From Podarcis pityusensis (lineage: Eukaryota), in assembly GCA_964106645.2 (NCBI GenBank), contig OZ067043.1: a stretch of DNA of 64,000 nucleotides; one strand, 5' to 3'. This document shows, piece after piece, positions 23,812 through 64,000 of the stretch. The notes under the pieces were generated by a model. It was not told the DNA's origin and ran no database searches. It saw nothing but the letters and a program-made list of their open reading frames with translations. Numbering within the stretch: the first letter of the stretch is position 1; each line of letters begins with the position of its first letter. Both the position numbers and the translations under genes were made by a program.

Positions 23812-23857
<46 letters not shown>

Positions 23858-26800: not shown

Positions 26801-29800
26801 ATCCACCAGGAATGATATGTTATGCTTAAGTAACTGAGGTGCAATACTGTTATTCGGACCAATAGAAATTATTGATTGGTCCTCATAAGGAAACATTCAC
26901 AGAGATATGGCATGTGAGGAGAATGTCCCAATCTGCACTTTGTAAAATGGAGAGGAGAAGGTGTTCTGCAGACTTGGGGGCCAAACTAGATGTGACCCCT
27001 GAGGCGTGTGAATGCATCTCTGTTGCTTTACTTCCCCCTCTGCCCTAAAATAACAGCCATGCCTCTCTCTTTAGCATCAGAAATCCCTTGTTCTATTTCC
27101 CCTCAATCCAGAGCCCTCCTACATTTCCATAACCAGACCAGGCTTCTGCTCCAACCCTCCTAAATCCACGAGCTGTTTGCTTTTTCCGTATGGGAACTGG
27201 TTGTGAAGGATGACCGCGGGAGGCCATTCCGGTTCCCACTCTCTCCTTGCGGGAAAAGGTGGCACTCATAAGAATCTTCCCTGCTAGCTTTAGGTATTTT
27301 CTGATTTGTATTTTCTGGAGCACTGAGGCCTAAGTGCAGGTGGGAGAGAATGGGAACCTGTGTCCCCCCACCCCACCCCAAGGTGTCCAGGGATTGAAGG
27401 CTGACCCAGCAGGACTAAGCATCATTGAACTATGTACCTGTCGATTGGTAAAGGGCACTGGAGAAGGGCACTGCATACTTCTGCCATGTAGGTATGAGCC
27501 AGCTGGGCCAGGACCCCCATCATTATTTGCCTGTCCTGGTACTGGTAAATGGAACCAAGCTGCTGGTAGATCTTATCCACAATTTCCGGCACCTTGAAGG
27601 AAACAAGCATGCTTCAGTTAAGTGCCCTGCTAGAGGGAAGCAGCGCTGGGGCAGGGACCACACCACAAGGTACAAACCAGAGCCCTCAAAGAGCAGAAAA
27701 CAAACATACATTTAAAATATGTCACCCAAAGCATCCTGGGAACTGTAGCTTTGTCAGGGGTAAACTGCAGTTCCCAGGAATATTTGAGGGAAGCCATGTG
27801 CTTTAAATGTGTGGTATGGATTCGACCCCCTGTTTTCATGGCCAAGCAACAAATCATTAAGATATTTATTATTTAAGATTATTTAAGGTATTTAAGATAT
27901 TTATTATTGTTGCACTTTAACTGCTAGGGAGGGGGAGAAGTGCCTGTGGGATTTTCTGTCTCAAGTGCCAAAATAATGTGACTGGACTTAGGCTGGGGAG
28001 GCTATTTGCTCAGTCAGCAAAACATCTGAGGCTGGTCCTGGAGGTGAGAAGGCACAACGATCCCCTGCTCTGGTCATTTGGGTTCTCCCAAAGATTGGTA
28101 GAAGTTGGATGGCCATCTGTCATGGATGCTTCAGCTGAGATTCCTGCATTGCGGGGTGTTGGACTTGATGACCCTCGGGGTCCCTTCCCAGTCTGCAATT
28201 CTATGGTACAGGGAGCAAGCGTCAGCTGATCAATAATTAGGCACTGACACAGGAAAACATCCTGTGAGCACTGACAGAGCCTTGCCAAGACCTTCACCAC
28301 AGATAAACTGTAAATGGGTTTTACGGTTTATCTCAGGGTATAAAATGGTACTGGTGCCTCTCAAGAAGCCGCCTCTGTCACTGCTGGGGTCTCTGCCGGC
28401 TCCAAACATCTCCTACCTGCCCATGTAACCTGTGCATGTATCGCTGCAGGATGACAGATGTGATGTCACGTGATGCCGCAGTGGTGCTCCTATTGGCTTC
28501 CTTTAGGCAGTCTATAGCGGTCAACAAAAGCTCTGTGATCTGTAGTGCTGTGAGGTACGGCAGAAATTCCTAAGAGAGGAGACACAGAGCAGCACTTTGT
28601 GGTAGGGGAAGCAGCTGAGAGGACAACAGCAAGGCAAGCTCAATTGGCAGGGCTTCCTTGTTCTAAGAGACCTTTGCAGGAAGGAATTAAGGGTTCTGTG
28701 GAGGAGCCCGTTCCTCTGCCACTTCACTTGGAAGTTAAATTCAACCAGCTACTTTGCTCCCAAGTAAAGGTGTACAGATTCAAAACCTGATGTTCTCAGC
28801 TTTTTATCTTACGGAGGAAACCAGACTAGTTCTTCTAGCTCAGGACTGTCTTCACTGGCGGGTAGTAAGTCTCCTGGGTTCCAGGCAAAGGACGTTCACA
28901 GCCCGGCCTGGAAATCCCATGGATTGAACCTGAGACCTTTCTTACCCAATGCACGTGCTCTCCCACTGCTCTTACAGCCCTTCTGCAAGTTTTATATCAG
29001 AAAACTGAAAATGGGGGCGATCCCATGCATGCAAGCTCAGAAGTGCCACAGAGTTCAATGGGTCTTTCTCCTCTCAAGGAAGTGCACGCAGAATTGCAGC
29101 ACTGTTGACCTATGATCTGAAAGTGGAAATCTTTGCCTCAAAACACACTACAAAGATGTAGTAATAATTATGGTTCTGCCCCTACCTTACACCCTATCAG
29201 GACTAAGTTACGATGGCCTCTGCAGTTTGCATATCCTCTGCATTGCATCATATCCAGCACTGAACAATTACCTGAATAATATGGGTGATATTTTGATGAG
29301 ACATAGTAGGGTCATAGGAACCCAGAATCTCTTCATACAGTTGGATCTCTTCTGCTTCCAGGGAGTTACTTTTGTTTTCGAAGCCTAACGAGAAAAAGAG
29401 TGACTTTAAAGTTTCTCCAAGCGGAGAGTTTGCTCTCAGGTTGCTGTGTGGGTGTCTGGAGTTTGGAAAAAAGGGAGAGAAGGAGCCAGAATGGCTGGCT
29501 AATGACACATAATGGCCAGGGGCCAAACTGTTCCAGCCACATCTTTTGTTAGGGAAATTGCAGGAAAATGGCACAGAATGGCCAACAAACACTTTGGCAC
29601 TCACCCACAGCTAAGGTGGGTCTTGGGTTCAGTGTATGACAGCAACAACAGAAGTGTGTTTTGGAACAGGAAAGGAAGGCAGAAAAGACACAGACTGCTC
29701 CCAGGAAGCCACTATTTTGCAGGTGAGAATAAATTGCATGCCAACTAGTTAAAGTTGTGAAGGTTGTTTATTTAGATGATAGGCATACTGCTCATTGTAC

Positions 29801-32800
29801 AAGCCACAGCACAGTTAAGTAACTAGAACAAAATAAGCTGTTTGCCTCCTCCAATGCTCCACTTGAACGTTTGCAAATAAAGCAAATATTACAGAAATGG
29901 CATATATCTCTCATCGTCTCTTCTCCAAAAGGAAGCCAAACCCTGGATAGCATTGCCCCTGGAACCTGGAGATGTGGGGATGCATAACAATAACCTGGCT
30001 CGGCCTGCCCCATTCCAAAATCCTCATTAATTCTCAAATTAGCTCTGGAAACTGCAGAGCGGGTATCCTGCTGCAACTGAGATGTGACCACCCATGATTT
30101 GGCACTGAGCTATAGATCAAGAATATCTTCTCCACCAGGGACCTCTCTCAAAGTCCCACTTTGTAGCTACATTAGGCAGGATCTTCTCCAGCTTCTGCAC
30201 AGTGAGGACTACAGGGGTTGTCAGCACAAAATCCAATGCACTATGGCAGAGACAAAAGGAGCATCAAGGGCAAACAGACCAGTGTCTGCAGAACAGCTAA
30301 CTAAATAAAAGCACTCTTTGCTGTTGCACAAAATGGGCATGTCTCTCCAGATTTTTGGAATCCCCTAACAATGATGCAATGCATCAAATTAATAGTCTCT
30401 GCTGTGGATCTTTCCAGAATTCCAGAATACTTCTTTCCACATGAAATAATAGAAAGTTGTTTTGAAAACTTTAAGTTGGTTTTAAGTTGGTGTGCGATTA
30501 TTCAGCTGCAAAGCTGAAGGAAAGCACACACTGGCTTCTGATACCATTGAGAGGCTGCACCTCCTGCCTCACAACAAGAACATTGCAGCAATGTGAAGAC
30601 CAATCTGGCTCCACCCATTGGCTAGTGAAGGTTCCTTCTCCCTCCCCATTCCTTATGTCTAATAGATTGCAAACTTGTGGTCAGAGACAATCTTGCCTTT
30701 TGATATATGTGCAGTGCTTAGAAAATAGGCACCTTATAATAACAGTATTCCTGTAGTTATTTGTCTGCATGTGTGTGCAGGTGTTTTGTCTTTTGCTAAT
30801 GTGGAGGCCTGGAGTTTCTAAGCACCCGTTTTTTCTTCTGTGAAATGGGTATTATGTGGTGCCAACAACAGTTGATTCTTCTTCTTTATTAAATTTATTA
30901 AACACCTTCTCTCACTGCAGGGAACTCAAGGCGTCTTGACAAAAAAAAAAATATTTCCAAATGTGCCCTTGGGCCAAAAAAGAAGAAGAAGAGAGAAAAT
31001 CGGGGATTCCTGATATAATGCAATACTGCCTTTTCAGTACTGGCCCCAACTTGGTGGAACGCTCTGTCACAAGATACTAGGGCCCTGCGGGACTTGACAT
31101 CTTTCCGCAAGGCCTGCAAGACAGAGCTGTTCCGCCTGGCCTTTGGTTTGGACTCAGTCTGACCTTTATGTTTCCTTCTCCTTATGGTCTTGATTTATTG
31201 GCTACTTTAAAATGAGGCTGCATTTTAACCTGTATTTTAAATTGCCCCCCCCCCATTATGTTTTTACTGTGATTTTATTGTGTGTTAGCCGCCCTGAGCG
31301 TGGCTCTGGCCGGGGAGGGCGGGGTATAAATAAAATTAATTTATTATTATTATTATTACCCAGATATAATAAAATACAGGACATAAGAAGAGTCAAGGGC
31401 AACAAGTCAATGGCTGCCAAATAAAGTACAGTCTACTACTTCTATATAGATGCACAGTTTGGATACTGGAGTTATCACAGCTCCTATCTTACCCTTTTGG
31501 CGCAGCATAAGGGAGTACAGGAAATACATGCCTTCCATAGCCTGTTCACCAATTTCCTCTTGGGGGTCATTGAGACGCAGACACAGCTGACCAATCAGAC
31601 GCCCAAGCTTAGGACATCCATCAGGTGACACCTGAATGGAGAAATTGAGAGTGCTGTCTTTTGACACTGCGGGGAAGAGAAGGAATCTTTGTGGTTCTTG
31701 AATGAAAAAAGTTCCCCAGTTTGGATGAACTGATGTTTGGAATTACATTGTCTTTTCCTGATGAGCCTTGTACCCTGTTCAGGCTATTCTCCTCGCACAA
31801 GGAGAGGGAAACAGGGCCATGCTAGCTGCCTCTACTGGCTCCACCATGCCTCCAACAGCCAGCTCTGCCACCCCTCCACACACAGGAAGGCAAACAACTG
31901 CAGCAGGAAGTCTGCTGCACTCTTAATGAGAACAAGCCTTGCATGATCAGGGGGTTCTGAGTCATGAGGGAAGCCTCCACAGAGACAATAGGCTTTGTGC
32001 GGCAGACACTGCAGAGTGCCAGTGTGTTGTTGTGGTTAGAGTGTTGGACTAAGAACTGGGAGACCTGGGATCTAGTCCCCATTTGACCACAAGGCTTGAT
32101 CTTGCTTCTGAGCCTAACCTACCTCACAGGACAAAATGGAGGGGGGGGGGGAACTATGTACACCAACTGAAGTTCCTTACAGAAAAGGTGGGATATAAAT
32201 GTAATAATAATTTTATTTATCTGATTCCATTTATGAATCAATTCACATAAATATATCCAAGCAGCTTCACAGTAAAAACCACAAACACTTAAAAACAATA
32301 GATAAAAGCAGTTTTAAAACCATTTCAAATCCGATTCAGATAGAACTGGGGTACAGACCTCCACTTAAAAAGGCTTGTTAAAGAAGAAAGGTCTTCCACA
32401 GGTCCCTGTGTGATATCTAGTGGAAGGGAGTTCCAGGGGCTGGGTGCCACCAAACTCAGGGCCCAATTCCTATATCATGTGGAATGGACTTCCTGGTGAG
32501 AAGGCATGTGCAGAAGGCTCTCTCCCTGTATATATAGAGGGCGAGATGATCTTTTAGATCATCTGGTCCCAAGTTGTACAGCTGTCTATGGTCTTACTTT
32601 TGCCCTTCCATGTTGCATAGGGGTGGCAAGGCTGGGCAATGGGGATGTGACGGAAGTGCTGGCTAGCTCTCTCACAGTTATCCTAATTGTGTGGGGCAGA
32701 ATACCTTCACAGGGTTTAGATTCATACCCATTATCAGTTTGTAGCAGCAATACTGTGAAAAGGCTATGGCTCATGGCTGTAGCATGGTTTTTGCAGGATA

Positions 32801-45309: not shown

Positions 45310-46740
45310 TTAGCGAGTCTGCACTTTACTCAGCAAGTTAACAATGGCTTCTTTGGTAAGGAACAAAGTCTCATTAGTATTTTGATTGCATACTTCAAAT
45401 AGAGAAGGCTCATCCAAAACCTTCTTGCCACCTATTATAACATAGGGGTACCCAAGTTTACTTGCATCCTTTAATCTTTTACCAATGGTGAATTGTGTCC
45501 GGTCATCCAGTACTATCTCCTCCTTAAGCCAAGGGGCTGCTTCAACAATACAGTCATATAAATCCTCCAGGAGCATTGCCCCTTTCTCCTCCTTGCTCCC
45601 TCTCTTTGGGGGAATAAGGCAGACTTGATATGGTGCAATGAGGCTTGGCCACCGAATGGCGTCCTCAGTAGAAAGCACCTCAATGGAGGCTGCAAGAATC
45701 CGAGTCACACCCAGCCCATAGCAGCCCATTTCAGCCGGAATATGCTTATTTTCTGCAGTGCGGACGGTAGCATTAAAAACAGAGGAGTATTTTGTGCCCA
45801 AGAAGAAGGTATGGCCAACTTCAATCCCTTTGTACTCAGCTAGTTTCCCTTTGCAAACTGGGCAATGCTTCTCATCTGGGTTTATCGTTTCCTCATTGGC
45901 TGCAAAGTCGCAGCCTGTGCACATCATCAATCGGTCCTCACCAACGTCAGCGGGCAGCTGGAATTCATGAGACATTGTCCCCCCGATGCTTCCAGTAGCT
46001 GCTTGGACTTTCACAAACCGAAGGCCTAAGTTGTTGAATATGTTGCCATAAGCGTTGCACACAAGGGCATAGGTCTGGAGGGCAGCTTCCTTGGAGGTAT
46101 CAAAGGTGTACATATCCTTCATATAAAATTCTCTGCCACGCAGCAACCCAAAGCGTGGTTTTGGCTCATCTCGAAACTTTCTTGTTACCTGGTACAGCAA
46201 GAGGGGAAGCTGCTTGTAAGACAAATGGCCTTGGGAAGCAATTAGGTCTGTGATGGCCTCTTCATGAGTAGGTCCTAGGCAGTATTCTTGATTGTGCCTG
46301 TCTGCCAGTCGTAATAGTTCACTGCCCATGAGTTCCCACCTTCCACTGGCTCTCCAGAGCTCTGCTGAGCTCAATGCGGGCATGTTCACTTTCTGACCCC
46401 CTATAGCCTGCATTTCTCGGTCTATCACTCTGATGAGCTTCTCCAGTGCTCGGACAGTGTAGGGCATATAGTGGAAGCAGCCGGGACTGGCTGGGTAGAT
46501 AAGTCCTGCTAGTAACATCAATCTCTGACTTTTACATGTCAGTTCACCTGGTTTGCTGGTTTGCTGTGATGCTATGCTATCCTCCCGCAGATTCATCGAC
46601 TGGAAGTGCTGGGATACACACTTTTGTCTTGCATGAAGATCACAATAAAACCTGCAACACTGTTGCTGCTTTTGGCACCAACCAAACCAATTTTTCAAAC
46701 CAGGAAGAATCGTTTTCCCTCTTCTGAGAAGCCCATCCAT
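45310..46740 (-). CDS. PARS2: Mitochondrial prolyl-tRNA synthetase, 476 aa, single coding exon
   Basis: Class II aaRS (bacterial-type ProRS) motifs SGRWELMGSELLRL, LGPTHEE, YQVTRKFRDEPKPRFGLLRGREFYMKDMYTFD, IEVGHTFFLGTKYS, MGCYGLGVTRI and WPSLIAPY. A splice acceptor (polypyrimidine-CAG) at 46776-46775 precedes the ATG at 46740. Confidence 0.96.
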   Translation of the reverse strand: MDGLLRRGKTILPGLKNWFGWCQKQQQCCRFYCDLHARQKCVSQHFQSMNLREDSIASQQTSKPGELTCKSQRLMLLAGLIYPASPGCFHYMPYTVRALEKLIRVIDREMQAIGGQKVNMPALSSAELWRASGRWELMGSELLRLADRHNQEYCLGPTHEEAITDLIASQGHLSYKQLPLLLYQVTRKFRDEPKPRFGLLRGREFYMKDMYTFDTSKEAALQTYALVCNAYGNIFNNLGLRFVKVQAATGSIGGTMSHEFQLPADVGEDRLMMCTGCDFAANEETINPDEKHCPVCKGKLAEYKGIEVGHTFFLGTKYSSVFNATVRTAENKHIPAEMGCYGLGVTRILAASIEVLSTEDAIRWPSLIAPYQVCLIPPKRGSKEEKGAMLLEDLYDCIVEAAPWLKEEIVLDDRTQFTIGKRLKDASKLGYPYVIIGGKKVLDEPSLFEVCNQNTNETLFLTKEAIVNLLSKVQTR

Positions 46741-47429
46741 TTCGAGACTCACAGATGAAGCTTCTCTTTCAAATCTGCAGGCAGAGAGAGAAAATAAAAG
46801 CAACTCATTTCGCATAAACAGATGCACATTTTATATCTAGCCAAAAGAGATTCCCCACATATTTTAGCTACTGTGAGAGCTGAATGCATTGAACACAGCC
46901 TGTTTGGCTAAACATGGGGCTGAATGATTCTAGCTGATTCAGTTAACTGGCAAATAAATGAGGAGTTTCTAGAAGAATGCGCTTCCCACAACTGCCTCAA
47001 ATGATGTTTAAGACCTGCTTCATCACCTTCAAAATGTATGCACAGGCACAAAAATATACATTTGCAATGCTCACACAACAGCTGTACAGCCCCACTTAAG
47101 GGTACACATCTGTACAGAAAAGGCGTAATGGCCCTTCCATTATCCCTGACCATCGTCCCTGACCCATCAGTCTGGGGCTGATGGGGCTGCACCCGGCAAC
47201 ACCTGCAGGGCCAGAGTCTTCCTCATCCCTGCTGCAATGCAAGAAGCTGCATGTTTTAATACCAATAATGAGCTAGCTTTTCCTATAGTTGCAAAGATAA
47301 CATTTGAAGAGCCACGAAAAGCAACCAAGTGTCTTCACGGTCCAAATTAAGAAGTTGTCCAAATCTGTTATTCTGCAAACGCCTCCAGAGACTTTTTGAG
47401 GAAGCAGGAAAAGAGAAATAAGAAATTCC

Positions 47430-51254: not shown

Positions 51255-54200
51255 ATGTCTGATGGGACGTAAGTACATTGTGTGCAATCTATATGCTTTG
51301 ATTAGGATGATGGTTAAATAAAATAACAAAGTGTGCCAGTTGCTTGACTTAATTCATGTTGATTAAGCAAGCTTTATTGCAGGAGAAGTTCACAGAAATA
51401 AGATGGGAAGGGTAATTAACCTGATGTATTAAGGAATAAAAAGGCAGCAATTTGGGTTTTCTTTTTTCCTGATGATAATTTTTATTAATTTTCAATTACA
51501 ATCCAAAATAGCCTCATTTGCAACAATACCAAATTATAATACAGTTACTAATACCAATCATTCAAATACTGAATTATATAATTTAGGTGGCCCCCCACAT
51601 GCTAGATTTGATGGTTTGATGGTTTTCTTTATTTCTGTGTTCCAAAATCTTCCTGTGTGGTGTAGTGGTTAAGAGCGGTAGTCACGTAATCTGGGGAACC
51701 GGGTTCGCGTCTCCGCTCCTCCACCTGCAGCTGCTGGGTGACCTTGGGCTAGTCACACTTCTTTGAAGTCTCTCAGCCCCACTCACCTCACAGAGTGTTT
51801 GTTGTGGGGGAGGAAGGGAAAGGAGAATGTTAGCCGCTTTGAGACTCCTTAAAGGGAGTGAAAGGCGGGATATCAAATCCAAACTCTTCTTCTTCTTCTA
51901 ATTTCAATTAAATTCCGGTTAAAATAATCCCTTATACAACAACTGCAGTATTAATAACGTCTATTTGTGTTGACACATTAAATGATTTATAGAACTACAA
52001 GTGAGGCACTCAAACTATATCCTTGTTTTTCCTGTGTGTGGCAATTATTCTGTTCGTGGTGTTTCTTCCTGTCCTTGTAAAATGTTATGTCTATCTTTCC
52101 CCCATTGTTGCTGTTCTCCATCATGCCGTGCGTGGAGCTGATACAGTCATACCTCGGGTTGAATGCGCTTCAGGTTGAGCGTGTTTGAGTTGCATTCTGC
52201 GGCAACCCGGAAGCAAAGGAGCGCATTACTTCCAGGTTTCGCCGCTTGCGCATGCGCAGATGCTCAAAATGATGTCACGTGCATGCGCAGAAGCAGCGAA
52301 AAGCGACACGCGTGTGCGCAGATGTGCCATTGCTAGTTACGTTTGCTTCTAGATGCGAACGGGGCTCCGGAACGGATCCCATTCGTATCTAGAGGTACCA
52401 CTGTATCCCATTTTCCCCCAGAAAAGTCTCCATTGCTCTGTCCCGTGCTTCGTCGTTTTGCAGCTTTAACAACAGCTGTAAAAATCACTCTGTCCCAATA
52501 AATAACCTGTTTTCACCATTTTTCCTCTCAGCCTGGGAAGAAGAGTGGTCTGTCGAACTGCAGATGACTCATTAATGAACCTTATCAGTTACTTGGCAAG
52601 TTCACAGACTCCTTTCATCCTTCCATCCAACTGAAGATAAATGAGCAATTATACTTCCAATTAAATTAAATTCCAAGTCCTTTTAGCGTTATTCAGTTCA
52701 CTCCGTAGATAATAAAGGATGGGGAAGAGTCAGTTCTAAGTTTCCATTGTAAATCTTTTGCAAAATAGAGCTTCCCTCCCCTTTTCCTTTTTTTACAAAC
52801 ACAGTTTATATTCCATATCTATAATCCAGTTTCACCCCTCCTAACTTGTACATATATAATTTGAACTAACATTCAAGGGAGGGTTGCCGAATCATAAACA
52901 TAGAGAAGAAAACTTTATATCAAGAAGCCGTAGGCTCCCCCCCCCCCCCGTCTTTTGCACCAAATGAAATTTTCTCTCAAGTTCAAACCTTAACGACCTT
53001 TTTGCTGGTTCTGTTCCACAGTTTATGATCTCATTTCTTCTAGCATGCACCTGTACTTTAGTCCGCAATTTCTTGATACAAAAAAGTGTGAAAAATAGAA
53101 TGGAACTTTTTGATTGTGATTAGGAACAGAAATGAAAATTGGTGTAAAAAGCTTTTGTTGGATTTCTGGCAAAACAACCTGCAAAAACTAACTTGTAAGC
53201 CTTAGGTAATGGTCTTTCATTGGAAAGAGAAACAAGACAGGTGTGGCCTCTGATTCTCAACCCCCCAACGTACTGACGGTTTAGTTATAATAAATTTGCA
53301 ATAAAAGAGGAATGAGATGAAAATAACTATGATGTTACGTGAAGCTTAGCAAACACTATTTGATAACAGAAGGGGATAAGCAGAAGATGGGTTAAAAATT
53401 AATTTAAGTAAAGCAGAGTCTACAGTACATAAATAGTAAATCTTTTTGGAATTGAATTAGTAGTCCTTATTATTTGTCAATTATTGATTTCAAAAACAGA
53501 TTAATTAGTGGAGGCCAATGAAAGACTTATTAGAAAATTGCACCTAAATTTTCTAACATGAAGTAGTCTACTAGGACAGTCCTGTGCATGCTTACTCAGA
53601 AGTAAGGACCACTGTTTCACTGGGGCTTTTCTCCAGGAAAGGTGTGCAAGAGATTGCAGCAAGGAAACCTCCAAAGAGGTAATGTGAAAGACAGACACGT
53701 TAAAATCCATCATTTTCAAGTTTGAAAAGATATTGTGAAGTAGCTAAGAGAAGAAGGGGGGAGATGTTATGTTGAGGAGAAGACTTGGGTAAATGAACAG
53801 AAGTGGGGAGATTGGAAATTAAAGCTGTGATCCTATGCCAAATTATCTGAAAATAAGTCCTGTTGATCAATCTGGGACTTTTGTATAGGATTGCGTTCCT
53901 AAAAATACTACACTAAGGGAATCGGATATAAAAGAAATTCATAAAGTATCCCTGTTAACCTCTTTATGTTCTGAACAAATGTCTTTAACAACTGGGACAA
54001 AAATATGGTTGTAGAGAATAGGGAGTGTTTCCATAATGAGCTAGTTAGAAAAAGCAAAGGATCTATGGGTGTTACATGACTATGCCATACTCAGAGTAGA
54101 CTCGCTGAAATCAGTGGGCAAATTAGTCATGAATAGACCCACTGAAATCAATAGACATGTCAGTTCCTCACTTCTGGCTGGAAGGACCACAGAATGGGGT

Positions 54201-57200
54201 TCAGAATAACTTCCTGTGATAGGATAACAAACCGATAGTCTGCCTGCATGTTTCAAACTCCCCACCTCCTCTGTGTTCTTTGGTAGATGTCTGCGCAGAA
54301 GAAAAGGTGCACATGAAATAGAACCCAAAACTGATCTTACTCGCTGGCGATTCAGCTCTGTGGAAGGGCGGCAGAAATGGTACTACGTGGCAAGCAGTGA
54401 AGAATGTGCCCGTGAACAGAATGCACTCGAGGCTTACACTTTAGGGCTGGACACTGTAAGTGGCTTAATGATAACAGATGGTACAACACGGAAAGGCTAC
54501 AAAAGGAGCCCAGGGCATGAGGACTGCTGGCTTGGCCCTGCCTAGCGGCAGTTTCTCAAGGGCTGGGTCATTTTTCTTTTGGCTTCTCATCTTCTGACAC
54601 CTCAGTTAGGAACACAGGAAGCTTGGTGATTGCTTTCATGGAACTGTGGAAGGGATCATGAGGGTCATCTCCTCAAACCGCCTGCCACTTGGTGCTGTAC
54701 AACTGCAACTTGATAATGTCAGGGTTGAATATGAAACCCTACTTGAAAAAAGACAAGCCTGCAAGATGAATATGACAATCTGCAGGAAATACTGAAATAC
54801 ATAACTTGGTTATCACTTTCTACAAGGCAGCTTCTTCATGCTTGTTGCCTATAATGATGACTGAATTCATCTGCAAGCAGTTTGCGGCCTCAGTGTTTGG
54901 TTCTTAGCCTTGGAAAGGGAGTTGGACTACATGATCTTCTGGTCCGTCATATTCTATAGTTCTCTGATGTGAGAGCTCTGTGGTGTTCTCCTAGAGAACA
55001 GCCACTCTCTTGCTCTCAATGATCAATCTCCAGTATACTGTGCCTGATACTCATTTCCATGATGCACGGATGATGCATCTGCATGAGGCATTTTGATGTG
55101 CGTGAAAATACTGAGGCACATCAATCCAATATGCAGTTTGTTTGGATAAAGGCCTCTGACTGATGGCTGGATTTCTAAACAGTTGTGATATCCCATATTG
55201 TGAGATGTTGGCAGGTGTAGATTTCACTTGAGATGTGCTTGTAAAACATAGTTTTGGAACCGTCTCTCAGGGCTAAACCATCCAGTACATTGAATGACTT
55301 TTTGTATTTAACATGACTGTTGTTTTAAACCGAAACAAGTTCATGAGGGCCCAATCAGGATAGGGATTGGGGTGGGTGAGGAAGAGAGAGTTATCCCTTT
55401 CCCAGCCTGCCCATGTCTACAGGCAAATACAAATAACAGCTGGCGATGGGCGTTTCATTGAGACTGCTGCTAGGAGGGGAAGTGTTAAATGACACCTCCC
55501 CATCTGCCATGGTCCCATTCCTGACTACCCTTCCCTGCTATATTTATTTCTAAGTGACCAAATAGTTGCATGAAATGTAGCAGGACATTTAACACAATGC
55601 ATACTTTGTCTTGTAGATAGTCTGTTTAGTTTTTGTGCATTTCTCTTACTTTTCCTATTTTGTTTTACAGAGCAAGTTCTTTCCAGATTTGCCCAAAGTT
55701 AGCACCGCCCAGGAAGCAGTCCAGAAAGCGATTAAATTCTTCTCTGGCCTGCAAGCAGAAGATGGCCATTGGGCCATGGAGTGCTCTGGCGTTCTCTCTC
55801 TTGCACCAGGTACATGGACACTAGCGGGTTTACCACATATGCATTAACTGGCTAAGGAGGGCCTCCCTGTATATTTTCTATAAATTTGTTGATCTTCTTT
55901 TACCAGACAGACAGAAATAGGTTGATATTTGGAGAAACCTCTTAAACTGAGGCCTTCTTTTAAGAGCTATTATGCAGTGTGTGAATGTTCCTCGCTCGAG
56001 ACACTTCTCCACTCTCTGAAAACTTCTTTGATCTCAGTGTCATGAATGTCTTTTTCCATGCATGAGAGGCTAAACCTTGAACCCTCTTAATTCAGAAGGG
56101 AGTTTTTGTAACTAAGATATATATCCCTGTTATCTTCCATCACTACATAATTATTTCTGCTGACAGGAGTGTCAGGGGTTGACACTTAGTCTTCCATTAC
56201 CTTCCCTGGAAGTCTGATCCCTGGAAGATGTGTATGTTCTTCAAGCCAGATTGCCTTGGGTCACCTGCCTGGGAAATTCTTCATTCTCAGAATTTCCTAT
56301 AGTTAAATTTATATATATATTTAAATCCCTCTATTTAGGAAAATGAAGTCTAGCCTCTCTCACAAAGCAGAATACAGTGGTGCCTCACAAGACGAAATTA
56401 ATTCGTTCTGCGAGTTTTTTCGTCTTGCGAGTTTTTTCGTCTTGCGAAGCACGGTTTCCCAAAGTCTTCAAAATCACCAAAGTCTTCAAAAACCTCAGAA
56501 AAGGCTACCACACCGCGTGCTATGAGTTGCTCCTCGAAGTCACCCTGGGTATTAACGGTTTTAAGAAAAAGGAAACAAACTTGCAAGACGTTTTCGTTTT
56601 TTTCGTTTTTCGTCTTGCAAAGCAAGCCCATAGGGAAATTTGTCTTGTGAAGCAACTCAAAAAATGAAAAACTCTTTCGTCTTGCGAGTTTTTCTTCTTG
56701 CGAGGCATTCGTCTTGCGAGGTACCACTGTACTTATTCAGTATATCCTGAACAGGGGGATAATCCATTGAATCCATTGTGCAGGATACTGTCCATCGGTG
56801 GCATCATACAGCTGTATGGAGATGTGGTAGACCAGATGATTTAAATTTTTTCTTCCCCTTACAGTTAATCTTAATTATTATTTTTAACTGTCTTTACTGA
56901 AAAGTTTAATATTTCCTGTAAACCACTTAGTGGGATTACGTCACTGAAGTGGTATATAAATAAATAATAAAATTTGATTTGTGTGCAGATCAAGATGAGA
57001 GAGAAATTTGATTCAGTTTGCAGTTAAAGGTCTTATTAGCACTTTCAGAAACAGTTTGAGAACTGAAACACAGGCATTCTTTGAAGTTCGCTCTTCACTG
57101 ATTTTTGTAGTGCATATCCCCAGCCAAGTAGTGTGTACAATGGCATATACTAGAGTAAAAACATAAATCTTGTTATGTTTGACCTTTTTCTTCTGTTTCA

Positions 57201-60200
57201 AGATGGTAAAAACAAACAATGGGGTACAAAAGCATAAGTTACGTTTCGATATCCAAACAGGCGGTTTATTGGCAGATCATACCAAAGTTAAGATTGTCAA
57301 GTACTACACATCTTCTTCTTCTTCTTTTTTAACCAAACAGCTATTTTGATGTCATGTTATGCTGCCAAGATCTCACTACCAGAAGAGGTTGAGAGAGAGC
57401 TCCTGCGCTACATCCTCTCAAAACAGCTTCCAGATGGTGGCTGGGGCCTGTAAGTAGTCCAAGGAGGGTGTGAGCTTCTCTAGAGTGGCCTAGGGAGAGA
57501 TGTTCTAATGCTGCATATCTTTGTCTTGGGCTGGTCCATGATGCAATTCCCCCATGAAGGCTTCTTTAAATCACTTCTGCATTCTGCTGTCTTTTGACTG
57601 TGAGCCTTTTATTTGCAATACTCACCATGTGAACTGGGCACCAGGGTAGATGACCAGAATGCAAGCTGGGCTCAGCATGTACTGAAGTTGCCCAGCTGTG
57701 GCGGAGAAAGATAGAATTCTGGCATGAGGAGTGGAGAGAGGCAACAATAATGAAGACATAATATCTGACATAGCTATTGCCTTTGAAAAGCACCATCTCT
57801 AGGAAGTATTACTATTGATAAATGGTGTGGTGAGGCCAGGTTGCCTCCATCCAAATGTATCCTGTCAAACCACAAAATGGATTGGAGTTTGACTGAGCTT
57901 TGAATCTGAATTCTTAGTAGCATGGTATCAACTTTATTTAGCTGGAATGGAATTTCAACTGGTACTCAGGTTGTATGAGCTGCTTTCAAGCCCATGCTGC
58001 CTCATGGAAGGAAAGATTTCAAAGCACCAAGTGCCCTTCATTAAGGCATTACTTTTTTAAAAAGGTAATAGAAAACAAAAGAAGGTATTCTGCGGTGTCC
58101 CGGCTAATGGATAGCTGGGTATGGGTGAGGCAAATTCTCAGAAAAGCTTTTGAATTTAAGGTAATACACCAGAAGAATGGAAACTAAACAATTCAAAGAG
58201 ATTTCCAGACCTCTGGACTCACTGGTCCACTTTCTAATGGCTCTTTGATCTCTCTTTATTGTAGCCACCTTAAAGAACAGTCAACAGTATTTGGCACAAC
58301 CTTTAGCTACATAGCTATGCGAATCCTTGGACTTGGGCCTGACCATCCAGATGTAGTGCGGGCTCGGATAAATCTCCACAAGAAAGGTAAGGCAGAAATC
58401 TCCGCCAGGGCTGGATCAATCCATTTTACTGGAGTGTAGTGCCCAGGTAAAGCTGGGGGCCCTGATGTAGTTATTTGGGAGCATCTTCCTATTCTGCCTC
58501 CCCCCCCTTCCTCCCTTCTTTTGTGGGTCCTTTTAGAAATCACCATAGACTGATCATAGAAATTGTGTGTTTGTCCCAAATAGAAGATGCTGGTCATATC
58601 TTCCCTCCCATTTTCCCTTCTCTAAAATTTATATTGGGAACTCTTGGGATGGGGGACATGGACCTGCCCTTTTATGCCACTCTGTAATGCACAATATACA
58701 GCGATAAAATTTTATTTTACTGTATTCTTAGAAATACAAAGAATGAGGTGAATTATAACCTCCCTTTTGCAGCAGCATTTTGCGGTGAACCCCCCTCTTA
58801 ACTACTGCTTAATCTTTTTGGTTTTATAAAGAAAACTCTCTGGTACTTGGAGACTTAGGAAAGTTAAACAGGGAAAGGTTTTTATTTTACAGAAACAAGG
58901 TGATAAATGCACAGCTTCTTTTCAGTTATTTCACTTCAGTTCCTAAAACTTAAATGAGTAGATGTTACAGCTTTGGCCTTAATACCTGGGGTCTTAAATA
59001 AGGTGGTGCTTGCTGTCAGTTTCCCAACTTTCTGTAAATCACACCCCTGAGGCTCTAATAGGATTACAGGTGATCACCCTCCAACTGGTTTGGGAATCTG
59101 CTTTTTCTCTAGAAGTTCTGTCACCTACTTTCTGAACTGGGACCCCAAGTAGAGTGTCCCCTCATAACTCTACTTATCCTGTCCCCAATTCAGCTTCCCA
59201 GTTTTTCTCTTGTCTGTACACTCCTAAAAAGACACTAATTAATGTCTTTCAAACTAAACTCAGCAGACTTCCATCTCTGGTTACAGATATTTTCCTCAGA
59301 GTGGAGCTATACACCTATCTAGCTGAACTCCAAGAACGCCAACTTTCAACTCTTCTCTCCCCAACTGTCTCTACGGCTTTCTCTTTTTCCTCCCAAAGTG
59401 CGGACTCCACACACACACACACCCCTGCCCAGCTAGTTGTATCCACAGCCACTCAGAAGGAGGCTACAGCTCAGCTCTGGTGGAATTCCAAGGCACTTCA
59501 TCACTAAACTCTGGTCTAGCTGAGCTTTCTGTCACACATTCACATAAGGTTTAATGGAACTAGGAGGTGAGGTGGTTCCTTCTGCATGGATACAGTCTGA
59601 GAAATACATAGCATATGTTTTCAGGATGATCAGGGCATTCACCCTGTCTCTGGGTAGCTTGGGTAGTTATAGGAAAAATGAGGAGGGAACTCTTTGGGTT
59701 CAGCCAGTTCAGAAACACTGCAGTGAGCATAGCTTAAAGTTGTGCAACTGCTACTAGACTTCCCCTTCAATGTGTGGAGTGTGGCCGGGCCAGGCAATGA
59801 GGGTGTGATGGGGCAGGGGTGGGGGGACTGGGCCAGTAAGCCCAGTTCTCTTTCTCCCCCTCGTGTGATGAGGACATAAAACCTGCATAGAGGTAGTGTT
59901 GGGTGGTATTAAATCTGGACACCACAGCAGTTCTTATACTCATGTCTCCACCTGATATGGGTAAGAAGAAATCTGAAAAACCACATGCCATATGGCTCTC
60001 TCTAAATAATAAGAACAATCCTAGAAAAAAGAAAGCTAGGATTAAATGTCTTTGTCGTGTTCCTGTACAATAGAGAGTCTTTCTAAGCACCCATTTCCCT
60101 TTTTATAGTTTTGCAAAGTATCTTCACAGCAAGGCAATAATCATATCTAGGTTCTCATTGTAAATTTATTTGGCTTTGTCCCCTTCAGTCTACAGAAGCA

Positions 60201-61388
60201 AAGATGTTGATAATTCTCTTTCTAGGTGGCGCTCTTGGAATCCCTAACTTGGGCAAAGTTTGGCTGGCCATTATGAATTTGTACAGCTGGGAGGGAATGA
60301 ATTCACCATTTCCCGAGTTGTGGTATGTGTCTGAAAGTTTACTGATCCCCACCCCACGCCACCAATCATGAACCCCCCCCCCCCAAATGTCTACAGTGTT
60401 GCACAGTAGACAAATTCTTTATTAAATAACAGTGACTTGGAAATTGAAATTAATCCATATTAACCTTCACCACTCTCAGAGGTCCAAAGAGGCCTGGGCT
60501 AGTTCCAGTTTTTGAGGCCCCTAGCCATAAAAAAAAAAAGATAAGAATGACAACTCTGGAAAACAAAATAAGGCACCAACAATATAGTGGGGGATTATTG
60601 CTTTGTTTGTTATTATGTTACCGGGTTTTGTGTTTTTATACTTTAAATTGCCCTGATCCTCAGATGAAGGGCAATATAACCTGCTTTTAGTGTTACCACT
60701 ACATCCAGGATTCCTGACATTGTCTTCCATGAACCTGTTTCTTCCTTCTTTCTGAAATAGGCTGTTTCCTACATGGCTGCCGGGACATCCCTCGACATAC
60801 TGGTGTCACGCTCGCCATATCACCCTCGCGATGAGCTACTGCTATGCCACTCGCCTGACTGTAGAAGAAGATGAATTGATCCATAGTCTAAGACAGGCAA
60901 GACAACATTCTCCAAACATCCCACCATCCTCGGTCAAAGTGGGACCCTCATACTTCCTTGGATCTGCACTTGGGGAATTGCTTGCTTGTATCTGACAGGG
61001 AGAAGGCTGAACTGGATGTCTTATTTTCCATTTAAGGCAGAAGTCAAGCTCAGAGCATCGGTGTTTCAAAATGCCATGGGAATATTTGTTTTGGAGAGAG
61101 GTGGGGGCATGTAAACATGCCACTTGGACATCCCTATTCCATAGGGGAGGGCAACTTTGGGAGGGTAGAATTTGGAGTGGAGATGGTGCACATGGCATCA
61201 CCCTGCCAAGTCACATAAGTCTCTCTCCATTCATGCTCTTATTTTAATTTATTTTAATGGCTCTGTGCTTCCTGTGCCACAGAGTATTCATTAACTCTTT
61301 GCCTCTTCTCGTAAAAACTGGTGAACAACATCAATATTGCCTCCTACATCACAGCAATACCACAATCTCCCTTTTTTATGCTTCTTTT

Positions 61389-61432
<44 letters not shown>

Positions 61433-63523
61433 TTTCCTCCCCTTTCTTTTGGTGTGGTAAAAGGAGCATTCTTCTCCCCTCTTCTGTACTACCAGAAAAA
61501 CAAATCAATGAAGAACTGTTGAACCATTAATCTCCTGTGGAGTACCCTCCTCTTTCTCCTCTAATGTTTTATTTATTTATTATTTATTATAACATACTTT
61601 TTTCCATTTAAGTATCAAAATGGTGATGACGTAGACTATTGCTCATGAAAGCTGATGCCATAACACAGGGAGGGGAAAATGCTAAAATGAATTTGCTGGG
61701 GTTTTTTTAAAGCTCTGTAATGACAGTTGTCAAGTACACTAATACCCTGCTTCTTCTTTACTATGAAAGTCATTTCACTTCATGGTTTCCTTCTAGGAGA
61801 TTTATGTGGAGGACTTCTCCACCATTGATTGGCCAGCCCAGAGGAACAATATTTATGAAGCCGATTTGCATGCTGCACACAGCTGGATGCTGGATGCTGC
61901 TTTTGGTGAGTGATTTTGGAATTGGCAAGTCTTTTTCCAGGAGTTCAGGCCTCCAACGTAGGTTTCCTAGGGTTTAGTTGGCACAGAGAAAGAGATTTCT
62001 GTTGGTATAGGCAAACACTTTTCATCAGAGGATATCCATGGAAACACACAACATTTTCCAAGTTTCGTATTATCATATGTAGCAAGCAAATACTTAGCCA
62101 ATTACAAGGACAAGGGATATTGAATCACACTGTGAAGACAGCCTGTGGGATCTCTCACACGATCTGAATTGTGATTTCTACCCCGCCCATTGCTTTTACA
62201 GTGTGAATTGGGATCCATTGTTGATCAGTTAAGGAAGAACAAGATATGTAACTACTTGATGCAGGGGTGCCAACAGGATTATCTGGGTCCAATGCATTGT
62301 ACCTTGATTGGGCTCTCTGACTCACTTGCCAAAGAGAACGCAGATCTGCATAAAATGTGTGTGTGTTGTGTAACATGCAAATTTGTGTCCTCTTTTGCGG
62401 GTAAGGTGGAAGGCCCACAAATGAAGAAGGGCATGTTTTGCTTCTTTACATTCTCATAGTTTGGTGGCCCTACTGATCCCAATGAGAGCTAGTGGGAGGG
62501 TCCCAGCAGCAGTTTTATGGTGCTTAATGACCCCCCCCCATTTGCTTCCCAGTGAACCTTAAAATGATCAAACTGTTTCATTCCATTTCTCTAGATGTAA
62601 CCTTGCCCAAGCCAAAGGAGAAAATCTGGCAGGGATTGTGATTTTGGCTCTTCAATTTTGGGGGTGGGGGTGGGTCCAGGGTGGAGGTTTGTTGGGAAAG
62701 ATTTTGGGAGGGGATCTGCAAAAGGTTCATGGAAGTTGGGGGTAAATGAAAAGAAGAAAAAAACCAAATGACCCCAAACAACTGGTGCCCACCCGTGATA
62801 AACCCCTTCACTCACACCCATGTTCTTTTGCAGACCCCCCCCCCCAAAAAAATCATATTTGAAATTAGGGGCTGAAATCCTGCCTCTGTTTTGAACCAAA
62901 ATATATTTCAGAAGCAAGTGCCATTGAATTCAATGGCGCCCTCTTCCGGGTAATTGCATGGAGGATTGCAGCCCCAAACACATGAGGAAGATAGAACTGC
63001 ATTAACACGATTGCGATGTTCATAGTGACTCTCTTATTCCTTCTGCAGCTACCTTCAATTTGTATGAGAGATACCATTTCACCAGTTTCAGAAAGCAAGC
63101 CATTGCGGAAATGTATGAGCAAATCAAGGCTGACGACATATTCTCAAACGCCACCAATTCTAGCCCGGTAGGTCCTTTGTGAAGAAAAAAATTGTACTGG
63201 GAACAAATTCCTTTTGATGACAGCATATACTCATTCTCCTGAGGAAGCTTTGCTTCAAAAACCAAACAGAGAGCTATATTTGTGGCAATCTTGTTCTGCC
63301 CGCTTGAGTTTCTGTGTTTGGCTGGTGAGATAGACAGGTAGTCGTGTGGCAGATGAGAGTGTTAAGCATGCAGGTATAGCAGAGGGGAATTCCTAACTGG
63401 AATGATATTCTCTTTTGTCCTGCAGACTTGTAAAGCGTTTCATGTGCTAATAAGCAGGTATGCTGATGGAGCCGATTCTCCAGCTTTTCAAGAACATATC
63501 TCCAGGATCTATGACTACCTTTG
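51255..63523 (+). CDS. Oxidosqualene cyclase, lanosterol synthase-like (divergent LSS paralogue); exons 1-10, gene continues beyond the window
   Basis: Exons 51255-51268 (MSDGT), 54287-54455, 55671-55809, 57341-57449, 58265-58386, 60226-60322, 60761-60896 (GC donor), 61797-61905, 63049-63167 and 63426-63523 total 1112 nt and are all in frame. Protein [26 protein letters not shown]...GRQKW...LQAEDGHW...[10 protein letters not shown]...STVFGT...RILG...YSWEG...HPSTYWCH...IDWPAQRNN...[14 protein letters not shown] is colinear with LSS residues 1-370. Confidence 0.93.
51652..51899 (+). mobile_element. tRNA-derived SINE (Squam3-like) in LSS-like intron 1
   Basis: A-box tggtgtagtggt, B-box-like ggttcgcgtctcc, core gggtgaccttgggctagtcac...ctcagccccactcacctcacag, L2-like 3' end and (CTT)n tail. 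Confidence 0.8.
52144..52403. mobile_element. Tc1/mariner-type MITE
   Basis: TA-cagtcatacctcggg ... ctagaggtaccactg-TA. Confidence 0.75.
56375..56729. mobile_element. Tc1/mariner-type MITE with internal TTCGTCTTGC repeats
   Basis: TIRs cagtggtgcctcacaagacgaa / ttcgtcttgcgaggtaccactg with TA TSD; several subterminal ttcgtcttgc motifs. Confidence 0.85.
61386..61433. repeat. (CTTT)n microsatellite
   Basis: tttctttctttc... Confidence 0.9.
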
Positions 63524-64000
63524 GTAAGCCTGGCATATGTATTCAAACCCATCTTTGTAGAATCCTGAACATGGTCTTGCATAAGTGTGCTTTTGCAGAC
63601 CTGGATCTTTCCTCAAACCAAGGTCAATCGGACTAGGAAACGTAAATGGTGTGTACACCTGTGAAAGCCGTAGTATGTGCACACATGAGCACAGATGCTC
63701 AGATGGCAGCTTCATTACTAGGAGTTCTGAGAGGGTGCGGGGGACCAGCAATGGCATGCACACTCTGTAAAGATCTCTGCCTCTGACGTGAACAACACTG
63801 TGCAAATGCAGCTTGCAGTGCAGTAAGAAAAAATCACCTTGTTGTGTTTTAAGCTGCATATGTGAACATATCCTTTTTTGCAGCATAGGTGGAACTCAGA
63901 AAGGTGTCATGCACACCTGCGTCCCACTCATTGTGTTGTCTGGAAGAGATTTCAGGGAGATTTTGCTTTTTGGCTATTCTTAAAGCCTATTCTAGACTTG

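What the first reader, a model, noticed from the sequence alone, without database searches (positions are those of the whole stretch)
60798..60833. Substrate-channel gate opened while His232 is kept: LWCHCRQVYLPM becomes [12 protein letters not shown]
Seen: H232 retained (CAC 60807-60809), with C233A (60810-60812), Y237T (60822-60824), L229Y and P239A. Established: this is the MWCYCR/WCHCR product-specificity motif of OSCs; H232 takes part in the terminal deprotonation, and C233 and Y237 (with I524) form the constriction between the membrane channel and the cavity in human OSC. Inference: keeping the catalytic residue while shrinking both gate residues argues for a functional enzyme handling a different or bulkier substrate or product, rather than random decay.
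Basis: partly seen in the sequence, partly recalled or inferred. Interest (0 to 1): 0.7.

Follow-up and report, generated by a model that had tools for sequence, protein, structure and literature searches.

The report
Rebuilt second sterol cyclase in squamates
Many lizards and snakes keep a second, intact copy of the enzyme that builds the sterol ring system, and its rebuilt active site likely makes a triterpene other than lanosterol, although animals outside sea cucumbers are reported to have only one such enzyme.

Summary
The motif is real ([12 protein letters not shown], 60798-60833). It lies in exon 7 of an intact 22-exon, 748-residue lanosterol-synthase (LSS) paralog. A second intact copy sits 40 kb downstream, and the ordinary LSS, with LWCHCRQVYLP, is on another contig. 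The paralog forms one clade across lacertids, a worm lizard, iguanians and snakes, and one assembled contig covers it spliced. So it is a kept gene, not decay. The third gate residue is also changed (I524C). But the gate alone is not diagnostic: snakes have Leu or Met at 237, yeast gate mutants stay active, and Pichia LSS has Thr233/Ala237. The stronger signal lies elsewhere. The protonation site (D455, W387, F444, W581) and H232/Y503 are kept, while Tyr98 is lost, the 380-382 loop is one residue shorter, and N697Y, I702L and W192L are near-fixed. Most of these changes mirror plant chair-chair-chair triterpene synthases. Best reading: an active oxidosqualene cyclase making a non-lanosterol triterpene, likely by the dammarenyl-type route. 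No activity, product or tissue was tested. I found no paper on it in a limited library.

The parts
60798..60833 (+). The finding: [12 protein letters not shown] (human LSS 229-240); H232 kept, C233A, Q235H, V236I, Y237T, P239A
51255..64000 (+). LSS-like gene, copy A, exons 1-10 of 22; it runs on past the window to its stop at G000:C6:57,794,912; 748 aa, no internal stop, 2 differences to P0002 over the 743 residues aligned
51255..51268 (+). Exon 1, coding part (ATG, GT donor)
   Evidence: an X1 contig covers 51119-51267
54287..54455 (+). Exon 2
55671..55809 (+). Exon 3; holds D97E (55779-81) and Y98C (55782-84), ECSGV in place of DYGGP
   Evidence: covered by the spliced X1 contig
57341..57449 (+). 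Exon 4
58265..58386 (+). Exon 5
60226..60322 (+). Exon 6; holds W192L (60249-51) and F195V
60761..60896 (+). Exon 7, with the finding; non-canonical GC donor in both copies (GT in the canonical LSS)
   Evidence: contig spacing fits use of this donor
61797..61905 (+). Exon 8
63049..63167 (+). Exon 9; I335S and G336S (63159-64), NSSP in place of SIGP
63426..63523 (+). Exon 10; I338T in copy A (Ile in copy B). Exons 11-22 lie outside the window and hold the shortened 380-382 loop, D455, F521Y, I524C (C6:57,790,632), N697Y and I702L/S703H

Best explanation
This is an old, intact duplicate of lanosterol synthase kept across lacertids, worm lizards, iguanians and snakes, and it is likely an active oxidosqualene cyclase that makes a triterpene alcohol other than lanosterol. 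Shown: the acid site that opens the epoxide (D455 with C456/C533) and the aromatic residues around rings A and B (W387, F444, W581) are kept, as is the H232/Y503 base pair. Shown: the residues around the middle and far end of the cavity and the gate are replaced and mostly fixed at new states (Y98C, W192L, C233A, Y237T/L, one residue lost at 380-382, F521Y, I524C, N697Y, I702L, S703H). Inferred: substrate still enters epoxide-first and is protonated by D455. Without Tyr98 and with the shorter loop it would fold chair-chair rather than chair-boat, as in plant non-sterol synthases. With F696 and H232/Y503 kept it would most plausibly end as a tetracyclic euphane/tirucallane/dammarane-type alcohol, or stop at three rings. 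Inferred: the canonical LSS on C1 covers cholesterol supply, which freed this copy for a specialised lipid. The opened gate is part of the rebuild, not the cause of the product change.
For: Intact frames and 22 conserved exons in two copies. dN 0.028 against dS 0.095 between copies, Fisher p 9e-9. One contig of run X1 (RNA by guess) joins exons 3, 7 and 9 at spacings of 330 and 110 letters, exactly the exon lengths between them. Single clade, stem 0.44, SH-aLRT 100. Of 332 positions invariant in 23 canonical LSS, 87 differ in copy A, and 43 of these are identical in all 7 full-length paralogs compared: new conserved states. D455 in 24 of 24, Cys98 in 24 of 24, H232 in 23 of 24. Model matches 1W6K at TM 0.93. 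Tyr98 is present in 32 of the 34 sole-lanosterol enzymes whose position I could read (hand count). In 61 scorable library representatives Tyr98 went with the long loop 30 times and with the short loop never; all 23 short-loop proteins lack Tyr98. PMC4346913 states that amyrin and lupeol synthases have two residues where cycloartenol synthases have three in this loop. The paralog aligns gap-free there to TwOSC1, a friedelin/amyrin synthase, and shares its E97, V101, H528, L702 and H703. Four plant enzymes that keep His232 but lack Cys233, Tyr98 and Asn697 make poaceatapetol, pre-alpha-onocerin, a malabaricadienediol and 19-epi-lupeol; two that change only Cys233 make lanosterol.
Against: No activity, product or tissue was measured. 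His232 is typical of sterol-route enzymes; most chair-chair-chair plant enzymes have Tyr there. V453, F444 and F696 are lanosterol-compatible. The plant signatures are correlations from other kingdoms. Most of the 23 short-loop representatives look like one unnamed clade of unknown product, so they are not independent. E97 also occurs in fungal lanosterol synthases, and H703 occurs with Tyr98 in several representatives. By my eye count only 11 of the 86 changed positions match TwOSC1. Two lanosterol rows lack Tyr98 (VealbLAS, CpalOSC5). Two of 21 paralog models with the exon keep the long loop (P0174, P0193). Pogona and Thamnophis models have Gly456, and the Sceloporus model is 467 aa with H232Y and F444A. 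The TwOSC4 row is discordant between the two supplement files. Recalled: yeast Tyr99 mutants give chair-boat tricycles, not chair-chair products.
Confidence: 0.5

Rival explanations
1. Active on oxidosqualene and non-lanosterol, but still on the chair-boat route: a truncated isomalabaricane tricycle, a protostane/parkeol-type tetracycle or an arborane-type pentacycle.
For: H232, Y503, V453, F444 and F696 are kept. Val at 381 matches V411 of the protostadienol synthase AoPDS (PMC10246894; equivalence by recalled numbering). Recalled, not checked: yeast Tyr99 mutants make isomalabaricatrienols, and the bacterial eudoraenol synthase carries Tyr at 697.
Against: AoPDS owes its product to Thr in place of F696 and sea-cucumber enzymes to residue 444; both are unchanged here. 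Loss of Tyr98 comes together with the short loop, the plant non-sterol pattern.
Confidence: 0.2
2. The change is mainly in substrate: the widened gate and far cavity take dioxidosqualene, squalene or another isoprenoid.
For: All three gate residues are changed. A233 and A239 match squalene-hopene cyclase in the printed alignment, and residue 237 is non-aromatic as in that enzyme (PMC3141018). LcLCC, which shares the His-kept, Tyr98-lost pattern, makes pre-alpha-onocerin (from dioxidosqualene, recalled).
Against: The acid motif is DCTAE, not DXDD; the hopene-cyclase model scores 230.5 against a cut-off of 431.1. Of 16 yeast mutants only N211A raised inhibition by squalene, not the gate mutants. 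Residue 237 varies from Ser to Leu. Squalene epoxidase matched one locus only.
Confidence: 0.12
3. It is a tissue-specific lanosterol synthase isoenzyme under relaxed constraint.
For: Catalytic and deprotonation residues are kept; N449 with V453 resembles a lanosterol-favouring pair in plants (recalled). Gate changes are tolerated by true lanosterol synthases. It lies one gene from a DHCR24-like sterol gene.
Against: Y98, the three-residue loop, W192, N697 and I702 are invariant in all 23 canonical LSS and are replaced and near-fixed in the paralog. Relaxation would not fix 43 new states across lizards and snakes.
Confidence: 0.1
4. It no longer cyclises: a sterol- or lipid-binding protein, or a duplicate now decaying in several lineages.
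For: Partial or low-quality models in Zootoca, Sceloporus, Thamnophis and Crotalus adamanteus; Gly456 in two models; a broken partial copy between A and B; no paralog listed for Anolis, Elgaria or geckos among the 120 hits shown per search (absence not shown).
Against: D455 is kept in 24 of 24 records; full 748-753 aa models exist in lacertids, Rhineura, Pogona and six snakes; purifying selection between copies.
Confidence: 0.08

Closest known systems
Vertebrate lanosterol synthase (human OSC, PDB 1W6K/1W6J)
   Same: Same fold (TM 0.93), colinear over 728 residues, matching exon series in this genome's LSS, D455/C456/C533, W387, F444, W581, H232/Y503, V453, F696. 58% identical to a primate LSS, 60.5% to lacertid LSS.
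   Different: Not the ortholog: canonical LSS is on C1, this gene on C6 between PARS2-like and TTC22-like genes. Tyr98, W192, C233, Y237, T381, F521, I524, N697 and I702 are replaced and one loop residue is lost.
Sea-cucumber parkeol and lanostadienol synthases (Thimmappa et al. 2022, PMC9236903)
   Same: [quoted passage not shown]
   Different: They replaced LSS, kept Tyr98 and the long loop, stay on the protosteryl route and differ by residue 444. The squamate gene coexists with LSS, keeps F444 and is rebuilt at many other cavity positions.
Plant dammarenyl-route synthases (TwOSC1, PDB 8J5Z; amyrin, lupeol, tirucalladienol and euphol synthases)
   Same: No Tyr98, two-residue loop at 380-382, non-Asn at 697, Leu-His-Tyr at 702-704. 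The Brassica euphol synthase and rice OsPTS also lack Trp192.
   Different: Unrelated origin (31% identity in the fold match), so any likeness is convergent. Most have Tyr at 232 and Cys at 233; the paralog has His and Ala.
Squalene-hopene cyclase (PDB 2SQC)
   Same: Gap-free alignment at the short loop; Ala233, Ala239 and a non-aromatic 237 as in its gate helix.
   Different: No DXDD motif; 21% identity; below the family cut-off.

Membership tests
Oxidosqualene cyclase family (TIGR01787; PF13243/PF13249) | Two alpha-barrel fold and full-length family match | tested here: met
   TIGR01787 690 bits against cut-off 322.7; model of P0002 (mean pLDDT 82.7) matches 1W6K at TM 0.93
Oxidosqualene cyclase family (TIGR01787; PF13243/PF13249) | Catalytic Asp455 in DCTAE with Cys456 and Cys533 | tested here: met
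   D455 in 24 of 24 records, C456 in 21 of 24, C533 in 22 of 22 with the position; both copies here have all three
Oxidosqualene cyclase family (TIGR01787; PF13243/PF13249) | Intact, spliced gene | tested here: met
   748 aa, no internal stop; exon-only spacing in one X1 contig, run type RNA by guess only
Oxidosqualene cyclase family (TIGR01787; PF13243/PF13249) | Cyclises 2,3-oxidosqualene | not testable with these tools
   needs an assay
Lanosterol synthase (LSS/ERG7) | Tyr98 (boat-ring residue; role recalled) | tested here: not met
   Cys in 24 of 24 paralog records, Tyr in 23 of 23 canonical; Tyr in 32 of 34 characterised sole-lanosterol enzymes read
Lanosterol synthase (LSS/ERG7) | Three-residue G380-T381-N382 loop | tested here: not met
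   exon 12 is 54 nt in both copies against 57 in the canonical gene, no alternative splice site 3 nt away; short in 19 of 21 models with the exon
Lanosterol synthase (LSS/ERG7) | Asn697 and Ile702 | tested here: not met
   Tyr697 in 18 of 20 and Leu702 in 19 of 20 records with the position
Lanosterol synthase (LSS/ERG7) | H232/Y503 pair, V453, F444, F696 | tested here: met
   23 of 24, 23 of 23, 23 of 24, 23 of 24, 20 of 20
Lanosterol synthase (LSS/ERG7) | Orthology to vertebrate LSS | tested here: not met
   a separate canonical gene lies on C1; canonical squamate LSS forms its own clade, SH-aLRT 100
Lanosterol synthase (LSS/ERG7) | Lanosterol as product; rescues erg7 yeast | not testable with these tools
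   needs an assay
Plant dammarenyl-route synthases | Two-residue loop, no Tyr98, non-Asn697, Leu702 | tested here: met
Plant dammarenyl-route synthases | Tyr at 232 (MXCYCR) | tested here: not met
   His in 23 of 24; Tyr only in Sceloporus; motif counts in PMC13657253 section 5
Plant dammarenyl-route synthases | Descent from the plant clade | tested here: not met
   57-58% to human/primate LSS against 31% to TwOSC1; the trees held vertebrate sequences only
Plant dammarenyl-route synthases | Chair-chair-chair product | not testable with these tools
   needs product NMR
Squalene-hopene cyclase | DXDD acid motif and family score | tested here: not met
   SDCTAE; TIGR01507 230.5 against 431.1

The most novel reading that the evidence does not exclude
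Squamates evolved, from their own sterol cyclase, the first known vertebrate non-sterol triterpene synthase. It converged on plant chair-chair-chair enzymes and gives lizards and snakes a home-made euphane/tirucallane/dammarane-type lipid, so some 'plant-derived' or 'lanosterol-like' peaks in reptile skin and gland secretions could be endogenous.
Probability: 0.4. Interest if true: 0.88.

Novelty: new variant of a known kind. Interest (0 to 1): 0.72.

Why it matters
A 2022 paper states that animals other than sea cucumbers have a single oxidosqualene cyclase (PMC9236903). All 7 characterised vertebrate enzymes in a 2026 table of 348 make lanosterol, and none is from a reptile (PMC13657253). 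A paralog kept across lizards and snakes breaks that rule and points to an unrecognised branch of vertebrate lipid metabolism. It is cheap to test in yeast. It is also a natural experiment on which residues switch the cyclisation route, starting from a protein about 58% identical to the solved human enzyme. Databases already label the gene 'lanosterol synthase-like', so its existence is annotated; its range, rebuilt cavity and likely new product are what I could not find described.

Tried and rejected
Pseudogene or assembly artefact: rejected. Diverged ortholog: rejected, the canonical gene is on C1. 'Gate opening means a new product': rejected as sufficient. E97 and H703 as route markers: weakened. 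Short loop as a splice artefact: rejected for this genome. Expression level and tissue: no RNA holder is on record; runs X5, X7 and X8 showed no cover of exon 7, which proves nothing; raw reads were not obtained, so level, tissue and direct splice joints stay open. PF13249 found no exon in the genome (short exons). A duplicated epoxidase or clustered pathway genes: one squalene-epoxidase locus; Pfam on 145 of 758 candidate frames found no P450 or transferase nearby, a partial scan. A full bootstrap tree timed out; one search used the fast search with 42 of 53 sequences (11 near-duplicate or partial rows dropped). The AU test used 5000 replicates, fewer than advised. Literature: searches (0 papers; 7 papers, none on reptile enzymes by listing; listings only; the last four were loose and dominated by unrelated papers) gave nothing on this gene or on reptile triterpenes; subscription journals are mostly missing. 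The eudoraenol-synthase paper was not held. PMC4191879, PMC10343288, PMC11641436 and PMC7062908 (term look-ups only) gave nothing useful. Earlier scan notes: none on this gene.

Full report
Observation. They lie in a 136-base exon (60761-60896) that aligns without gaps to human lanosterol synthase (LSS) 217-261. All residue numbers below are human LSS numbers.

The gene. A search of the genome with this exon gave three places: the window, a copy 39.5 kb downstream on the same contig, and a locus on contig C1. Mapping P0002, a database protein named lanosterol synthase-like of Podarcis lilfordi, gave two full copies and a broken fragment on C6 and an ordinary LSS on C1 that keeps LWCHCRQVYLPM. 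Copies A and B each have 22 exons and 748 codons without internal stops. Copy A starts at window 51255 and differs from P0002 at 2 of 743 aligned residues, so the host is a lacertid lizard. Between the copies dN is 0.028 and dS 0.095 (about 47 changes in 1722 replacement sites, 46 in 510 silent sites; Fisher p 9e-9). One 2022-letter contig of run X1 covers exons 3, 7 and 9 at spacings of 330 and 110 letters. These equal the summed exon lengths between them, so the gene is spliced and the GC donor after exon 7 is used. The run is RNA by guess only; three other runs laid in that call did not cover exon 7. Tissue and level are unknown.

Range and age. Three protein searches and a cluster look-up gave relatives in lacertids, Rhineura, Pogona, Sceloporus, a boa, vipers, colubrids and elapids. 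I aligned 22 database records from 18 named species with the two copies here, 6 turtle proteins and 23 canonical LSS; some cluster members, mostly isoforms and fragments, were left out. In a tree of 42 of these 53 sequences the paralogs form one clade on a stem of 0.44 substitutions per site (SH-aLRT 100), apart from canonical squamate LSS, which includes geckos (100). Among ten fixed topologies, duplication on the squamate stem (p-AU 0.73) and grouping with two side-necked turtle proteins (0.64) both stand; duplication inside the lacertid-iguanian-snake group is marginally rejected (0.038, 0.005). P0002 is 78% identical to the boa paralog, against 83% between canonical lacertid and viper LSS, so after a fast start the gene is nearly as constrained as LSS. 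No paralog was listed for Anolis, Elgaria or geckos, but only 120 hits were shown per search.

What is kept and what is rebuilt. Of 332 positions invariant in 23 canonical LSS, copy A changes 87, and 43 of those are identical in all 7 full-length paralogs compared. Kept: D455 (24 of 24 records), C456 (21 of 24), C533, W387, F444, V453, W581, Y587, F696, Y704, Y707, H232 (23 of 24) and Y503. Replaced: D97E and Y98C (24 of 24), W192 (L in 22 of 24), C233 (A in 21), Y237 (T 10, S 3, L 10, M 1), P239, F521Y (23 of 23), I524 (C in 21), N697 (Y in 18 of 20), I702L and S703H (19 of 20 each). The 380-382 loop is one residue short in 19 of 21 models with that exon; here exon 12 has 54 bases against 57 in the canonical gene, with no alternative splice site. 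An AlphaFold model of P0002 (pLDDT 82.7) matches 1W6K at TM 0.93; I could not inspect the cavity.

The gate argument. PMC3141018 (parts 1-3 of 4 read) confirms that Tyr237, Cys233 and the Ile524 equivalent form the constriction. It also shows that yeast T235A and Y239A keep 35% and 51% of control activity, rescue sterol auxotrophy and are not more sensitive to squalene. In the supplement of PMC13657253 (sequence cells cut at 400 letters), Lotus and Trichosanthes lanosterol synthases have Thr or Ser at 233, fungal ones Thr, Met, Ile or Val, and the Pichia enzyme Thr233 with Ala237.

The stronger signal. Four changes outside the finding point away from lanosterol. (1) Tyr98 is present in 32 of 34 sole-lanosterol enzymes whose position I could read (9 animal, 17 of 18 fungal, 6 of 7 plant; hand count). 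Its role in forcing the boat ring is recalled. (2) PMC4346913 (passage) states that amyrin and lupeol synthases have two residues where cycloartenol synthases have three in the 380-382 loop; the paralog has two and aligns gap-free to TwOSC1 and to squalene-hopene cyclase there. Among 149 unnamed library representatives, 61 could be scored: Tyr98 with long loop 30, Tyr98 with short loop 0, no Tyr98 with short loop 23, no Tyr98 with long loop 8. Most of the 23 look like one clade; an earlier scan note (e1-6787663, untested by me) suggests the long ones are epoxidase fusions of unknown product. (3) Asn697 marks 47 of 52 cycloartenol synthases and Met 67 of 85 beta-amyrin synthases (section 5); the paralog has Tyr. 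(4) Leu-His-Tyr at 702-704 matches TwOSC1 and Leu734/Tyr736 of beta-amyrin synthase (reference title). Against this, His232 is the sterol-route residue. In the plant motif table I counted by hand 72 His rows, 65 with Asn697, 6 without and 1 blank. Four of the six also lack Cys233 and Tyr98, and these make poaceatapetol, pre-alpha-onocerin, a malabaricadienediol and 19-epi-lupeol. The other two are PgPNX (Asp; a cycloartenol synthase by recalled name) and a row that disagrees between the two files. So the paralog's exact combination, where it occurs in tested enzymes, went with non-sterol products 4 times in 4. This is a small sample from another kingdom.

Mechanism. Shown: an intact, spliced, conserved OSC-fold gene with the acid site and final base kept and the rest of the cavity and gate fixed at new residues. 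Inferred: D455 opens the epoxide of oxidosqualene; the substrate folds chair-chair instead of chair-boat; F696 and the H232/Y503 pair allow a fourth ring, rearrangement and proton loss to a euphane, tirucallane or dammarane alcohol, or the cascade stops at three rings. I give this 0.5, a different chair-boat product 0.2, a different substrate 0.12, lanosterol 0.1 and no cyclase activity 0.08. Recalled: euphol and tirucallol have mass spectra close to lanosterol, so such a product could hide in published reptile lipid lists.

Context. The pair sits between a PARS2-like and a TTC22-like gene, with a DHCR24-like gene next. This may be chance insertion into an old gene block. Squalene epoxidase matched one locus.

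Known and new. PMC9236903 (passages) says animals other than sea cucumbers have one OSC. The 2026 table lists 7 vertebrate enzymes, all lanosterol synthases, none reptilian. Searches found nothing on this gene, but the library lacks most subscription journals and four of these searches were loose. The gene is a member of the OSC family, fails several defining sequence features of lanosterol synthase, and works, by inference, like plant non-sterol synthases without belonging to them. Verdict: new variant of a known kind, interest 0.72; a single yeast experiment would settle it.

Noticed in passing
G000:C6:57,806,453-57,835,431 (L006-L008): Second intact copy B, 748 aa, 42 differences to P0002 over 743 aligned residues. 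Differences to copy A are uneven by exon (0-1 in seven exons, 10-16 in four), which may reflect gene conversion. It groups with P. raffonei and Lacerta copies, so the tandem pair appears older than one species.
   Followed up: partly
G000:C6:57,799,910-57,802,985 (L005): Broken partial third copy of exons 3-5 between A and B; exon 4 is split by about 550 bases.
   Followed up: partly
L012:5960-9244, minus strand: Exons of a DHCR24-like sterol delta-24 reductase lie 36-40 kb past copy B, one gene away. The name is recalled from motifs; tools show only weak FAD-oxidase family hits. The gene order matches the recalled human PARS2-TTC22-DHCR24 block, so the closeness may be chance.
   Followed up: partly
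window 45313-46830, minus strand: Single 506-residue open frame of a proline-tRNA ligase (PARS2-like), head-to-head with copy A, 4.4 kb away.
   Followed up: partly
window 9526-12376 and 19650-31742, minus strand; L009:1496-2023 and L010:2419-3240, minus strand: TTC4-like (Wheel, TPR) and Maestro/MROH-like exons upstream; TTC22-like exons downstream.
   Followed up: partly
P0079 and P0155 (database proteins): Two side-necked turtle LSS-like proteins also have altered gates (C233S/A, W230Y, I524T/A) but keep Tyr/Phe98 and the long loop. They join the squamate paralog in the tree (SH-aLRT 97.5), which may be shared origin or long-branch attraction.
   Followed up: partly
P0200 and P0007 (database proteins): The iguanian members are further diverged: Pogona has DGTGE, I524Y and N697L; Sceloporus has H232Y, F444A and is 467 aa. 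They may make other products or be decaying.
   Followed up: no
P0118 (database protein): A mullet LSS-like protein carries P101I, F103L, P239S and T381I, a possible separate teleost duplicate.
   Followed up: no
window 60897-60898: GC donor after exon 7 in both copies; the canonical LSS has GT there.
   Followed up: yes
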